NCBI GenBank assembly: GCA_000004985.1
Contig: GG739315.1
DNA from: Naegleria gruberi
Lineage: Eukaryota
Direction: 5' to 3' (one strand)
Length of the DNA: 1,847 bases
Shown: one piece after another, positions 1-1,847 of the stretch
Layout: the number at the start of each line of letters is the position of its first letter
Position numbering within the stretch: position 1 is the first letter of the stretch
Translations under genes and position numbers: made by a program
The notes under the pieces: model-generated
Databases searched by the model: none
The model's input: the letters and a program-made list of their open reading frames with translations, nothing else
What the model was told of the DNA's origin: nothing

Positions 1-684
1 GAATGGATTATATTCTAATTCCTCTGAAGTTTCCATATTTTTTTGAGAAACTGATCCAGTGGAAAGTGATGGGTTATATTCTACAAATTTTGACGATCCC
101 CAACAGATTTTTTGGGAAGCTGATCCTATACAAACCAGACATTCATGTACAAAATTAAAATCAGTCATTTGTAACAAATTCAAAATCTGACTCTTATTCT
201 TATAATACAAATATCCAAAATCTTTTGTCCATTCTTGAATTGGAGCAATAATATTTACAGGATGAAACAAGGAATCAGTCCAATCCATTCTTCCGTTTGT
301 TTTCTTCAATAATTCTCTAGTATAAAAATCAAGTTTAAAGCCTGGCATTCTTGTTTCGAAATTGGAAATTTCCTCTTCATCAACAGGCTCTTCATTCAGT
401 GCTCTCAGAATAAGATCTTCATCATTCAATTCCTTGAATATAGCCAAAAAGTCTCTCCTCTCCACAGATAGACAAGCCATCCTCAAATCAAGACAAACCA
501 ACTCGATCACCATTCGATGTTTTTCCTCTAAATAACTAATGATCAATTCTAAAGTATCGGGAGACATTAATTCTTTCCATCGGGTTTCAATTGATGAAGG
601 ATTTATATGATAGATACATGATGTTGATGATGATTCATTGTCCTCCTGTTTTTCTGATTCCTCGACTTCTCGTTCCGACAACAT
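1..684 (-). CDS. Protein-coding gene with its 5' end complete (ATG at 684..682) and its 3' end running off the window at position 1. It encodes an F-box-like domain protein. The N-terminal 228 aa read MLSEREVEESEKQEDNESSSTSCIYHINPSSIETRWKELMSPDTLELIISYLEEKHRMVIELVCLDLRMACLSVERRDFLAIFKELNDEDLILRALNEEPVDEEEISNFETRMPGFKLDFYTRELLKKTNGRMDWTDSLFHPVNIIAPIQEWTKDFGYLYYKNKSQILNLLQMTDFNFVHECLVCIGSASQKICWGSSKFVEYNPSLSTGSVSQKNMETSEELEYNPF...
   Basis: I translated the reverse complement by hand, codon by codon. Plus-strand frame 1 (positions 1-3, 4-6, ...) contains no TTA, CTA or TCA triplet from 1 to 771, so the minus frame is open for 228 codons. The first in-frame stop upstream of the ATG is TGA at 774..772, with no in-frame ATG between it and 684. 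The start context is A-rich with A at -3 (atcatcATGt) and has no Shine-Dalgarno. Residues ~36-74 (WKELMSPDTLELIISYLEEKHRMVIELVCLDLRMACLSV) fit the F-box pattern L-P-x-E-[IL]-L-x-x-I-[LF]-S-Y-L-[DE]...V-C. Codon usage (TTG/TTA Leu, AGA Arg, GAA Glu, AAT Asn) resembles Saccharomycetaceae. The ORF track omits it because no stop falls inside the window. Confidence 0.75.
   Translation of the reverse strand, partial: MLSEREVEESEKQEDNESSSTSCIYHINPSSIETRWKELMSPDTLELIISYLEEKHRMVIELVCLDLRMACLSVERRDFLAIFKELNDEDLILRALNEEPVDEEEISNFETRMPGFKLDFYTRELLKKTNGRMDWTDSLFHPVNIIAPIQEWTKDFGYLYYKNKSQILNLLQMTDFNFVHECLVCIGSASQKICWGSSKFVEYNPSLSTGSVSQKNMETSEELEYNPF
463..579 (-). other. F-box-like motif in the minus-strand ORF, residues ~36-74: WKELMSPDTLELIISYLEEKHRMVIELVCLDLRMACLSV.
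   Basis: This is a by-eye match to the F-box consensus (PF00646-type: LPdEil..Il.yLd..dL....VCk.W). The conserved hydrophobic positions are kept: L-x-P-x-x-L-x-L-I-x-S-Y-L, and V-C after a ~10-residue spacer. The usual Trp after V-C-K is replaced here by Leu (VCLDL). No profile search could be run. Confidence 0.45.
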
Positions 685-941
685 GATGATAAAAATCTTC
701 TCCCAACAAATATTTTTTTTGTGTTTAATTTTGGAAAGTTTACAATGTTTAAGAGCAGTGCCAAGTTCTTTTCATGAAATAGCACGTATTGAAATAAATT
801 GGTGTGAATAATGTTAAGTTTGCAAAAGAATATGAAAGTTTAAAAACTAATGAGACACCGTAGTAGAGCAAGTGAATGTGCTACGAAACCAAGATCAGGT
901 TGAACCACATTGCAAATGATTAATTACAAAAAATAGAGTTC

Positions 942-947
942 TATAAT
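942..947 (+). promoter_or_regulatory. TATA-like element (cTATAATtt) about 104 bp upstream of ATG 1051.
   Basis: TATAAT is a 1-mismatch fit to TATA(A/T)A(A/T). The spacing suits a yeast-style TATA-to-TSS distance of 40-120 bp, which would give a short 5'UTR for the plus-strand gene. This is sequence-only evidence with no expression data. Confidence 0.25.
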
Positions 948-989
948 TTCAGCAGTGTTACTTGGCAGCATTATCCAAAAACTGACCGA

Positions 990-996
990 TGACTAA
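990..996 (+). promoter_or_regulatory. AP-1-family site TGACTAA (Yap1-type YRE, or a Gcn4 half-consensus).
   Basis: This is an exact TGACTAA heptamer. Yeast bZIP factors bind TGACTAA (Yap family) and TGACTCA (Gcn4). A single 7-mer in 366 bp of AT-rich DNA has a modest chance expectation, so this is low confidence. Confidence 0.15.
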
Positions 997-1002
997 TTTC
1001 CT

Positions 1003-1010
1003 TATTTAAA
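1003..1010 (+). promoter_or_regulatory. Second TATA-like element, TATTTAAA, 41-48 bp upstream of ATG 1051.
   Basis: TATTTAAA has one mismatch to TATAAAAA-type boxes. If it is used with yeast spacing, the TSS would fall at or inside codons 1-25. In that case translation would begin at the second in-frame Met (1081), which still yields a good signal peptide. The alternative is that this is just AT-rich sequence. Confidence 0.2.
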
Positions 1011-1050
1011 CGTTCTAATATGGACTGATAACGCCAGCCCAGTAAAAAAA

Positions 1051-1134
1051 ATGGCACCACACAAATCTCTGCTCACAACAATGGTCGCCTTAATAGTAGT
1101 TACCTTAATACTCCTCGCCCCATCACTCTATGCC
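1051..1134 (+). other. Predicted N-terminal signal peptide or signal anchor, residues 1-28 (MAPHKSLLTTMVALIVVTLILLAPSLYA). The possible cleavage site is after Ala28, before ND.
   Basis: There is a positively charged n-region (H4, K5), then a ~17-residue uninterrupted hydrophobic stretch (MVALIVVTLILLA), then a small polar c-region (PSLYA with Ala at -1), and then N-D. One N-glycosylation sequon (N-N-T, FNNTAF) lies downstream, which fits a lumenal or extracellular domain. Without a predictor I cannot tell a cleaved signal from an uncleaved type II anchor. Confidence 0.55.
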
Positions 1135-1847
1135 AATGACTTGATTAACGCCAAGCTCGATACTACATATAATGTTAATTATCTTAATACAGAGGCTGAA
1201 CCTTCTGGTACTTATCTTTCATCTGAATACCAATATGATAATGCGTTTGGTCCGGTCACTGTGAATGATAATTTCCAAAACGTTCAAGTATTCTTTGAAC
1301 AACGCTTCAATAATACTGCGTTCGATTTTACACTTTCATTATTATCTGGAAAAGTTCTTCAACCAACAGCAACATTCGGAAAGTTGAAACTCTCAATGAA
1401 GTTGTACAATAATCCTGTGGAGAAGGTTGTGTTGAGATTTAATGCACCTTTGGGTATCTGGAATGTTGACCTGTTGAGACGTATGCAAGCTTACTTTTAT
1501 GATCCTACCACTTATACATCTGAATTAACTGTTCTTGGTGATCAATTTGGTGTCATTAGGAGATATATTAACATGTTTGAAGTTGAATTGAATTTGCCTT
1601 ATATTTTCCAAGCAATTCAAAAGACTGAATTTCAGCTTATTCTCTATACTGAAGACAGTCCTTTGGATCCAACTCCATTAGTTGATTATAGATGGATTGA
1701 AGTACCATATGCTGCATCATATGCTATGAAATTAGAATCAAATCCAAATTTCAATAGATACTTTACAATTGGATTCCCATCTATTACTCCTATTAATTAT
1801 ATGTTGTATCAACCTCCAAGATTCCTTCTTACTGAAGCTTATAATGT
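1051..1847 (+). CDS. Protein-coding gene with its 5' end complete (ATG at 1051) and its 3' end running off the window. It encodes a signal-peptide or signal-anchor protein of unrecognised family: MAPHKSLLTTMVALIVVTLILLAPSLYANDLINAKLDTTYNVNYLNTEAEPSGTYLSSEYQYDNAFGPVTVNDNFQNVQVFFEQRFNNTAFDFTLSLLSGKVLQPTATFGKLKLSMKLYNNPVEKVVLRFNAPLGIWNVDLLRRMQAYFYDPTTYTSELTVLGDQFGVIRRYINMFEVELNLPYIFQAIQKTEFQLILYTEDSPLDPTPLVDYRWIEVPYAASYAMKLESNPNFNRYFTIGFPSITPINYMLYQPPRFLLTEAYN...
   Basis: I translated frame 1 by hand from 1051 to 1845 and found no TAA, TAG or TGA: 265 full codons plus a partial one. The upstream in-frame stop is TAA at 994..996, with no in-frame ATG between 997 and 1050, so 1051 is the first ATG. 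The context aaaaaaaATGG is A-rich with A at -3, which is yeast-like, and there is no Shine-Dalgarno. Residues 9-28 form a hydrophobic core followed by polar ND. A second in-frame Met at codon 11 (1081) would give an even more canonical signal peptide, MVALIVVTLILLAPSLYA. The ORF track omits this gene because it lacks an in-window stop. Confidence 0.8.
   Translation, partial: MAPHKSLLTTMVALIVVTLILLAPSLYANDLINAKLDTTYNVNYLNTEAEPSGTYLSSEYQYDNAFGPVTVNDNFQNVQVFFEQRFNNTAFDFTLSLLSGKVLQPTATFGKLKLSMKLYNNPVEKVVLRFNAPLGIWNVDLLRRMQAYFYDPTTYTSELTVLGDQFGVIRRYINMFEVELNLPYIFQAIQKTEFQLILYTEDSPLDPTPLVDYRWIEVPYAASYAMKLESNPNFNRYFTIGFPSITPINYMLYQPPRFLLTEAYN

What the first reader, a model, noticed from the sequence alone, without database searches (positions are those of the whole stretch)
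1051..1847. Secretory-pathway protein of unrecognised family, also missing from the ORF track
The ORF is at least 265 codons, is open to the window edge, and has a textbook N-terminal hydrophobic signal. The mature region is rich in N, Y, F, T and P, has alternating hydrophobic/polar patterns that suggest a beta-rich lumenal or extracellular domain, and carries one NxT sequon. I cannot assign it to any family I know from sequence alone. It could be a conserved but poorly studied ER/Golgi/cell-wall protein or a lineage-specific one. Two in-frame Met codons (1051 and 1081) both give workable signal peptides, so the true translation start is ambiguous.
Basis: partly seen in the sequence, partly recalled or inferred. 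Interest (0 to 1): 0.55.

Follow-up and report, generated by a model that had tools for sequence, protein, structure and literature searches.

The report
Truncated orphan Naegleria membrane-protein gene
The open reading frame is the front half of a real but ordinary gene of the amoeba Naegleria gruberi. It encodes a signal-peptide protein, probably membrane-anchored, whose only detectable relative is one other gene in the same species.

Summary
Window 1051-1847 (+) is an uninterrupted 265-codon reading frame that runs off the sequence end. It has an N-terminal hydrophobic signal, no cysteine and one NxT sequon.

The window is a complete 1847-bp scaffold of Naegleria gruberi. GenBank already carries this ORF as 'predicted protein, partial' (XP_002668109.1). 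It was 'missing from the ORF track' only because ORFs that run off an end are not listed.

A search of 1.84 billion representative proteins found one true relative. This is the N. gruberi paralog NAEGRDRAFT_50994 (46% identity, E 3e-61, dN/dS about 0.3). Its 551-aa form has a signal peptide, a roughly 480-aa ectodomain, a C-terminal transmembrane helix and a 12-residue tail (RRRKSAAYDSIN).

The best reading is the 5' half of a type I membrane protein from a two-member family restricted to Naegleria, cut off by the scaffold end. Function is unknown; a surface or endolysosomal role is only inferred.

No Pfam, NCBIfam or PDB match was found. AlphaFold models were unusable (pLDDT about 40).

One 22-residue motif (aa 130-151) resembles a single DUF285 (LRR-like) repeat unit. 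There is no tandem array and the paralog barely matches, so this is not membership.

Met1 (1051) is the first ATG in the open frame and is the favoured start. Interest is low.

The parts
1051..1847 (+). 5' part (265 codons) of a protein-coding gene, cut off by the scaffold end. It is GenBank XP_002668109.1/EFC35365.1, whose model stops at 1800. About 285 further codons are expected by comparison with the paralog.
   Evidence: Open frame. 100% match to P0001, N. gruberi 'predicted protein, partial', on a contig of 1847 bp. 46% identity to paralog P0002 over residues 9-265, E 3.2e-61. The alignment continues to the last codon. dN/dS is about 0.30. The ORF is longer than any open frame in 5000 simulations.
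1051..1134 (+). Predicted cleavable signal peptide, aa 1-28. The n-region is MAPHK (K5), the h-region is about L7-A23, and the c-region is PSLYA. Cleavage is inferred after A28 (SLYA|ND).
   Evidence: KD hydropathy 2.39 over residues 6-24. The paralog aligns with its own hydrophobic N-terminus and with Y-G|QQ at the same column as Y-A|ND. The cleavage site is an inference; SignalP is not available.
1081..1083 (+). Second in-frame ATG (Met11), an alternative start. It is less favoured.
   Evidence: Context ACAACAATGG here versus AAAAAAAATGG at 1051. There is no ATG between the upstream stop (994-996) and 1051. The paralog also starts with MA and has a Met at the column of Met11. The GenBank model starts at Met1.
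994..996 (+). Nearest upstream in-frame stop codon (TAA). It bounds the open frame on the 5' side.
1309..1317 (+). The only N-x-S/T sequon (N87-N-T). It is not conserved in the paralog.
   Evidence: The paralog's sequons are at its residues 10 and 49 and do not align.
1438..1503 (+). Motif FNAPLGIWNVDLLRRMQAYFYD (aa 130-151), which resembles one unit of the DUF285 (PF03382) LRR-like repeat.
   Evidence: It caused all 38 non-family hits in the representative search. A single-unit HMM scores 16.6 bits, and 0 of 200,000 shuffles reached 12 bits. An ungapped PSSM scores 24.0 bits here against 0.2 bits for the paralog's motif, and neither protein has a second unit. hhalign probability is 45%.
1648..1710 (+). 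Most conserved block of the family, TEDSPxDPTPLVDYRWxEVPY (aa 200-220). Residues 201-225 are 80% identical to the paralog.
   Evidence: Invariant columns; windowed identity. A degenerate DNA pattern for DPTPLVDYRW found nothing in JGI metagenome contigs or GTDB genomes.
685..1050 (.). 366-bp AT-rich spacer between two divergently oriented ORFs. It is presumed to be a shared promoter and 5'-UTR region (inferred).
   Evidence: Positions of the two ORFs. GC is 0.31-0.36. No tRNA, no Rfam family near its gathering score, and no tandem repeats.

Best explanation
The window is a whole 1847-bp unplaced scaffold of Naegleria gruberi. Positions 1051-1847 are the first 265 codons of an intronless gene that the scaffold end cuts off.

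Proposed mechanism:
- Translation most likely starts at the first ATG (1051).
- Residues 1-28 act as an ER signal peptide and are probably cleaved after SLYA.
- The rest is the N-terminal half of a cysteine-free, beta-rich lumenal or extracellular domain.
- By analogy with its only relative, the N. gruberi paralog NAEGRDRAFT_50994, the missing 3' part probably encodes about 285 more residues. These would end in one transmembrane helix and a short basic cytoplasmic tail, which makes a type I membrane protein of the cell surface or endolysosomal system.

Shown here: the ORF is real and under purifying selection; it has an N-terminal hydrophobic signal; it belongs to a two-member family restricted to Naegleria; the paralog has SP + TM + tail.

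Inferred: signal cleavage, the C-terminal anchor of this copy, its localisation, and any surface-recognition or adhesion role.
For: - Identity with the N. gruberi partial predicted protein, on a contig of 1847 bp.
- The open frame is beyond chance.
- The paralog hit has E 3.2e-61 and 46% identity over residues 9-265. It is collinear to the last codon of the window.
- pN 0.38 against pS 0.68, giving dN/dS about 0.30.
- The hydrophobic N-terminus is conserved in both copies, with a small residue after a conserved Tyr.
- In the paralog, residues 510-538 give KD up to 2.90 and are followed by RRRKSAAYDSIN and a double stop TAA TAA.
- Nothing else in 1.84e9 representatives or 5.8e9 clusters belongs to the family.
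Against: - The 3' half is not in the window and no other contig with it was found. The TM anchor of this copy is therefore only extrapolated from a 46%-identical paralog.
- No dedicated signal-peptide or topology predictor could be run. The apolar stretch is about 17-20 residues long, which is also compatible with an uncleaved signal anchor.
- There is no expression evidence.
- Structure prediction failed (pLDDT 39.8 and 39.9), so 'beta-rich ectodomain' is weakly based.
- Function is unsupported by any homology.
Confidence: 0.6

Rival explanations
1. It is a soluble secreted or lumenal protein. This copy has the signal peptide and the ectodomain but, unlike its paralog, lacks a C-terminal membrane anchor.
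For: The signal and ectodomain are seen directly. The C-terminus is unknown. Outside the conserved blocks the paralogs are only 24-36% identical, so the architecture could differ.
Against: The paralog, which is the only guide available, has a clear TM helix and a stop-transfer RRRK. The alignment is collinear for as far as the window goes.
Confidence: 0.15
2. It is a divergent or relic member of the DUF285 (PF03382) LRR-like surface-protein superfamily. On this reading the ectodomain is a degenerate solenoid, with only one unit still recognisable (aa 130-151).
For: - 38 DUF285 proteins hit residues about 129-160, with E down to 2.4e-10.
- A single-unit HMM scores 16.6 bits, nominal E 2.5e-7, and 0 of 200,000 shuffles reached 12 bits.
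- The motif keeps F, N, P, G, W, N, V, M and F of the consensus FNQPIGSWNVSxVTxMxxMF.
- hhalign gives E 2e-4 and tentatively extends the match to a second unit.
- DUF285 proteins are themselves surface proteins (PMC11992049).
Against: - The whole-protein E-values are inflated, because one query segment matches 4-11 repeats per target.
- The Pfam DUF285 model does not hit the protein at E<=1.
- The paralog's homologous motif scores only 0.2 bits, and no second unit exists in either protein; the next best score is -21.6 bits.
- hhalign probability is only 45%.
- The test is post hoc.
Confidence: 0.12
3. It is a type II or signal-anchor protein. The N-terminal hydrophobic stretch would not be cleaved and would itself be the membrane anchor.
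For: The apolar stretch LLTTMVALIVVTLILLAPSL is about 20 residues long, which is enough to span a bilayer. Only one basic residue precedes it.
Against: - Pro at -5, and Ala at -1 after a conserved Tyr, fit a signal-peptidase site.
- The paralog conserves that layout (Y-G|QQ) and carries a second, stronger C-terminal TM with positive-inside residues. That arrangement is the standard type I pattern.
Confidence: 0.08
4. It is a dead gene fragment or assembly leftover: a pseudogene copy or an unplaced haplotig piece that makes no functional product.
For: It lies on a tiny 1847-bp scaffold. No exact copy of the gene product was found on any other contig. There are no expression data.
Against: - 265 codons (283 in the open frame) are intact in 34% GC DNA, where simulated frames never exceed 213 codons.
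- dN/dS is about 0.3 against the paralog.
- It has an intact start context and signal peptide.
- A second long intact ORF lies on the opposite strand of the same scaffold.
Confidence: 0.05

Closest known systems
Naegleria gruberi NAEGRDRAFT_50994 (XP_002674400.1 / UniProt D2VNG4), with a near-identical 551-aa product on ENA metagenome contig ERZ929261 k127_254462 (P0002)
   Same: It is a true paralog with 46% identity over window residues 9-265 (E 3.2e-61). It shares the N-terminal signal, the same order of conserved blocks (RFNAPxGIxNVDLLR, GxIRRYxNMFEVExNL, TEDSPxDPTPLVDYRWxEVPY) and the same low-GC genome.
   Different: - The first 125 residues are only 24-36% identical.
- The sequons are not conserved.
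- The paralog has Cys residues in its ectodomain, whereas the window part has none.
- The genomic neighbours differ.
- The paralog is itself uncharacterised, and its 1280-aa GenBank model looks like a fusion with the next gene.
DUF285 / PF03382 (BspA-like, LRR-related tandem-repeat surface proteins of mycoplasmas, other bacteria, giant viruses and phytoplankton)
   Same: One 22-residue stretch (aa 130-151) matches the about 25-residue unit consensus at its nine most conserved positions. Both are extracellular or surface proteins (PMC11992049).
   Different: There is no tandem array and only one unit. There is no Pfam hit, the paralog barely matches, and no solenoid is predicted. It is not a member.
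Generic eukaryotic type I single-pass membrane glycoproteins with a short YxxPhi-bearing tail (for example the LAMP or sortilin-type sorting logic)
   Same: The architecture inferred from the paralog is a signal peptide, a large lumenal domain, one TM helix, and a 12-residue basic tail. The tail contains Y-D-S-I, which fits the YxxPhi pattern. The meaning of that pattern is from my own knowledge.
   Different: There is no sequence or demonstrated fold similarity to any such family. The tail of the window's own copy is unknown, and the motif's function in Naegleria is untested.

Membership tests
Two-member Naegleria family (window protein + NAEGRDRAFT_50994) | Significant, collinear sequence similarity over the whole available length | tested here: met
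   E 3.2e-61 and 46% identity over residues 9-265 aligned to 11-271. A single collinear alignment has 117 invariant columns.
Two-member Naegleria family (window protein + NAEGRDRAFT_50994) | Protein-level constraint between the copies | tested here: met
   Nei-Gojobori pN 0.382 against pS 0.680, with dN/dS about 0.30. The core (residues 125-265) gives dN 0.353 and dS 1.18. dS is near saturation, so the ratio is approximate.
Type I single-pass membrane protein | Cleavable N-terminal signal peptide | tested here: inconclusive
   The hydrophobic core has KD 2.39. The layout is K5 in the n-region, Pro at -5 and Ala at -1, and it is conserved in the paralog. No SignalP or DeepTMHMM is available, so cleavage is not shown.
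Type I single-pass membrane protein | C-terminal transmembrane helix followed by a cytoplasmic, positively charged flank | not testable with these tools
   The window ends at codon 265 and no 3' continuation was found. The feature is met in the paralog: residues about 510-538 with KD up to 2.90, then RRRK.
DUF285 (PF03382) | Match to the Pfam model at or above the gathering score (25 bits) | tested here: not met
   hmmscan at E<=1 lists only KRE1 (12.4 bits) for the window protein. It lists nothing for the paralog at E<=0.01, and only COX14 at E<=5.
DUF285 (PF03382) | Tandem array of several about 25-residue units | tested here: not met
   The unit HMM and PSSM find exactly one unit, aa 130-151. 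The next best window scores -21.6 bits. hhalign extends weakly into a second unit at 45% probability.
DUF285 (PF03382) | Unit consensus FNQPIGxWNVSxVTxMxxMF | tested here: inconclusive
   The window motif scores 16.6 bits (HMM) and 24.0 bits (PSSM), above all shuffles. The homologous motif of the paralog scores 0.2 bits. The test is post hoc.
KRE1 (PF17056) | Pfam gathering score of 27 bits | tested here: not met
   12.4 bits, E 0.13, over 35 residues only. This is treated as noise.
ER-retained (HDEL/KDEL) or GPI-anchored protein | C-terminal HDEL, or an omega site with a hydrophobic tail | not testable with these tools
   The C-terminus lies outside the window. The paralog ends in ...YDSIN after a TM helix, with no HDEL.

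The most novel reading that the evidence does not exclude
The ectodomain may be a previously undescribed fold, defining a surface-protein family born within the Naegleria lineage. Its most conserved N-terminal motif would be a relic of a single DUF285/LRR-like unit. Such repeats are otherwise typical of bacteria, giant viruses and phytoplankton, so the unit could have been acquired from them. That would be an example of a solenoid repeat unit co-opted into a non-repeat domain.
Probability: 0.1. Interest if true: 0.35.

Novelty: new member of a known kind. Interest (0 to 1): 0.15.

Why it matters
It matters little beyond annotation.

- It ties an orphan partial GenBank model on a tiny scaffold to a paralog.
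- It extends the coding region by 15 codons, up to the scaffold edge.
- It predicts the missing half (a TM anchor plus a short tail).
- It flags the paralog's 1280-aa model as a probable gene fusion.

Lineage-specific surface proteins of Naegleria could be relevant to amoeba-environment or amoeba-prey contact. Nothing here points to an unusual mechanism.

Tried and rejected
- Pfam, NCBIfam and PDB sequence searches found no family, both for the window protein and for the two-sequence profile. The KRE1 hit (E 0.13) and the uS2 hits (E about 2) were rejected as noise.
- AlphaFold2 was run on the single sequence and with the two-sequence alignment. It gave pLDDT 39.8 and 39.9, so neither model is usable.
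- The search for the 3' continuation and for more relatives found nothing:
  - exact-product look-up;
  - JGI metagenome contigs, by profile and by a degenerate DPTPLVDYRW pattern;
  - viral contigs;
  - GTDB genomes;
  - the word-indexed profile search of 5.8e9 clusters, which returned only the two known clusters.
- The DUF285 lead was followed through a unit HMM, shuffles, a PSSM on the paralog and hhalign. It was downgraded to a single-motif resemblance.
- A segmental duplication with the paralog locus was rejected, because no neighbours are shared.
- RNA genes, tRNAs and tandem repeats in the window: none.
- A literature search for the accession numbers gave no papers.

Full report
**Origin of the window.** The translated ORF is 100% identical to P0001, a 250-aa 'predicted protein, partial [Naegleria gruberi]' (XP_002668109.1 / EFC35365.1). 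The only contig carrying it is 1847 bp long, which is exactly the window length. The window is therefore a whole small unplaced scaffold of the N. gruberi genome. Its 34% GC fits this and equals that of the paralog locus.

**Checking the observation.**
- Positions 1051-1847 (+) translate without a stop for 265 codons, up to the last full codon of the window.
- The frame is open from 997, after TAA at 994-996. There is no ATG between 997 and 1051.
- The 283-codon open frame exceeds all 5000 first-order Markov simulations of the window (median of the longest frame 82 codons, maximum 213).
- The N-terminus holds the only strongly hydrophobic stretch, with a Kyte-Doolittle mean of 2.39 over residues 6-24.
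- After residue 28 the composition is L 11.4%, N 9.3%, T 8.0%, Y 8.0%, F 7.6% and P 6.8%. There is no cysteine, and the single sequon is N87-N-T.
- The ORF is absent from the mechanical ORF list only because that list omits ORFs running off an end.

All elements of the observation are confirmed.

**Is it a real gene, and what are its relatives?**
- A filter-only HMMER scan of 1.84 billion cluster representatives gave 40 hits. Two of them have E<1e-30: the protein itself and P0002.
- P0002 is 551 aa, with 46% identity over query residues 9-265 (E 3.2e-61).
- P0002 sits in the same 90% cluster as N. gruberi XP_002674400.1 (NAEGRDRAFT_50994, UniProt D2VNG4).
- A profile of the two proteins, searched against 5.8 billion clusters, recovered only these two clusters.
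- Scans of JGI metagenome contigs, viral contigs and GTDB genomes found nothing. These included a degenerate DNA pattern for the invariant DPTPLVDYRW.
- The two copies align collinearly up to the window's last codon.
- Identity is 24-36% in the first 125 residues, 64% at residues 126-150 and 80% at residues 201-225.
- Nei-Gojobori counts give pN 0.382 against pS 0.680. This corresponds to dN 0.535, dS 1.78 and a ratio of about 0.30, with dS near saturation. That is protein-level purifying selection.
- The neighbouring genes of the paralog locus (L001) are unrelated to the window's neighbour, so there is no trace of a segmental duplication.

**What the paralog reveals about the missing half.** P0002 has four parts:
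- a hydrophobic N-terminus (residues 9-32) ending in TCYG|QQ;
- an ectodomain of about 480 residues, with Cys at 179, 333, 362, 418 and 468;
- a strong hydrophobic helix at about 510-538 (KD up to 2.90);
- the tail RRRKSAAYDSIN.

In the DNA the tail is followed by TAA TAA. This is the layout of a type I membrane protein. Y-D-S-I fits the YxxPhi tyrosine sorting pattern, an interpretation that comes from my own knowledge and is not tested here.

In the alignment the window's SLYA|ND falls on the paralog's CYG|QQ, with a conserved Tyr at -2 and a small residue at -1. Both proteins begin with MA, have a Lys in the n-region, and have a Met at the position of the window's Met11.

**Start codon.**
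- Met1 (1051) is the first ATG of the open frame and has the context AAAAAAAATGG. Met11 (1081) has ACAACAATGG.
- Met1 supplies the basic n-region residue K5 and is the start of the GenBank model.
- Under ribosome scanning Met1 is favoured, unless transcription starts between 1051 and 1081. This is an inference and needs 5'-end data.

**Known families.**
- Pfam gives only KRE1, at 12.4 bits against a cut-off of 27.
- NCBIfam gives nothing.
- PDB sequence and profile searches give only E of about 2 noise.
- The paralog has no Pfam domain either.
- AlphaFold2 failed twice, with mean pLDDT 39.8 and 39.9.
- Both models do place mostly beta strands between residues 78 and 214.

**The DUF285 lead.**
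- The other 38 hits are long repeat proteins, each matched in 4-11 stretches. The best stretch almost always corresponds to query residues about 129-160.
- All eight of these hits that were scanned are DUF285 (PF03382) proteins. Several are labelled 'surface protein' by JGI.
- DUF285 is described as an enigmatic tandem repeat distantly related to LRRs. It has a solenoid conformation and occurs in bacteria, giant viruses and phytoplankton (PMC11992049).
- The whole-protein E-values (down to 2.4e-10) are inflated, because one query segment is counted once per repeat.
- A 25-residue unit HMM built from 51 units hits the window protein once, at aa 130-151 (FNAPLGIWNVDLLRRMQAYFYD). The score is 16.6 bits with a nominal E of 2.5e-7.
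- In 200,000 shuffles of the protein the best score was 11.8 bits.
- An ungapped PSSM gives 24.0 bits for this motif but only 0.2 bits for the homologous motif of the paralog (FNAPNGIMNVDLLRHARATF). No second unit appears in either protein; the next best score is -21.6 bits.
- hhalign of the two-sequence profile against a five-unit DUF285 alignment gives 45% probability (E 2e-4). It extends only tentatively into a second unit.

The conclusion is a real but isolated resemblance to one DUF285 unit. The defining tandem array and the Pfam threshold are not met, so the protein is not filed under DUF285. A relic or chance origin cannot be decided.

**Best explanation.**
- The feature is the 5' half of an intronless N. 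gruberi gene.
- It encodes a signal-peptide-bearing protein of a two-member family restricted to Naegleria.
- It is most probably a type I membrane protein of the surface or endolysosomal system, and the gene is truncated by the scaffold end.
- The steps shown are coding reality, constraint, the N-terminal signal, paralogy and the paralog's architecture.
- The steps inferred are cleavage, the anchor of this copy, localisation and function.

Rivals:
- a soluble secreted variant;
- a degenerate DUF285 solenoid;
- a type II signal anchor;
- a dead fragment.

**Surroundings.**
- On the minus strand an ORF runs from ATG at 684 to the left edge: 228 codons from the ATG, and 257 open codons from 771.
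- It is longer than any simulated frame.
- It has only a sub-threshold SMI1/KNR4 (SUKH-1) match, 22 bits against a cut-off of 25.4 (E 2.7e-4).
- It has no counterpart at all in the protein database, not even itself. It appears to be an unannotated gene.
- The 366-bp spacer (685-1050) between the two divergent ORFs holds no tRNA, no Rfam family near threshold and no tandem repeats.

**Verdict.** The feature is an ordinary lineage-specific orphan gene that is already present in GenBank as a partial model. Novelty is low and so is interest.

Noticed in passing
window 1-684 (minus strand; frame open to 771): A second long ORF lies on the opposite strand. It has 228 codons from the ATG at 684 and runs off the left edge, which is longer than any frame in 5000 simulations. 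It has a sub-threshold SMI1/KNR4 (SUKH-1) Pfam match (22 bits against a cut-off of 25.4). It has no match in the 5.8-billion-cluster protein database, not even to itself, so it seems to be an unannotated N. gruberi gene.
   Followed up: partly
window 1801-1847: The GenBank model XP_002668109.1 stops at residue 250 (nt 1800). The frame stays open beyond that, and homology to the paralog continues (MLYQPPRFLLTEAYN aligned to LQAAPPKFMLTEVNN) to the scaffold edge. The model is therefore 15 codons short.
   Followed up: yes
L001 3880-4100 (paralog locus): The 1280-aa GenBank model of the paralog (NAEGRDRAFT_50994, P0041) departs from the contiguous ORF right after ...IIGGI, inside the TM helix. 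It continues into the next gene. In the DNA the ORF instead ends MYWRRRKSAAYDSIN followed by TAA TAA, and the downstream ORF has its own ATG. The long model looks like a gene fusion made by a predicted intron.
   Followed up: partly
L001 (ENA ERZ929261, run ERR1078381, PRJEB11402, contig k127_254462): A metagenome assembly contains a 5.4-kb contig whose genes differ by only a few residues from the N. gruberi NEG-M genes. This implies that a N. gruberi-like amoeba was present in that sample.
   Followed up: no
P0002 residues 540-551 (L001 3889-3924): The paralog's 12-residue cytoplasmic tail contains Y-D-S-I, which fits the YxxPhi tyrosine-based sorting pattern. This hints at endocytic or lysosomal trafficking. 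It is a pattern match only.
   Followed up: no
window 3-17 and 69-83: A 15-nt direct repeat (ATGGATTATATTCTA / ATGGGTTATATTCTA) is spaced 66 nt apart. On the minus-strand ORF it encodes a repeated EYNP motif 22 residues apart, near the window edge.
   Followed up: no
window 1438-1503 (method note): phmmer whole-sequence E-values as low as 2.4e-10 arose from one 22-30-residue query segment matching 4-11 tandem repeats per target. Repeat proteins can thus make a single short motif look like strong homology.
   Followed up: yes
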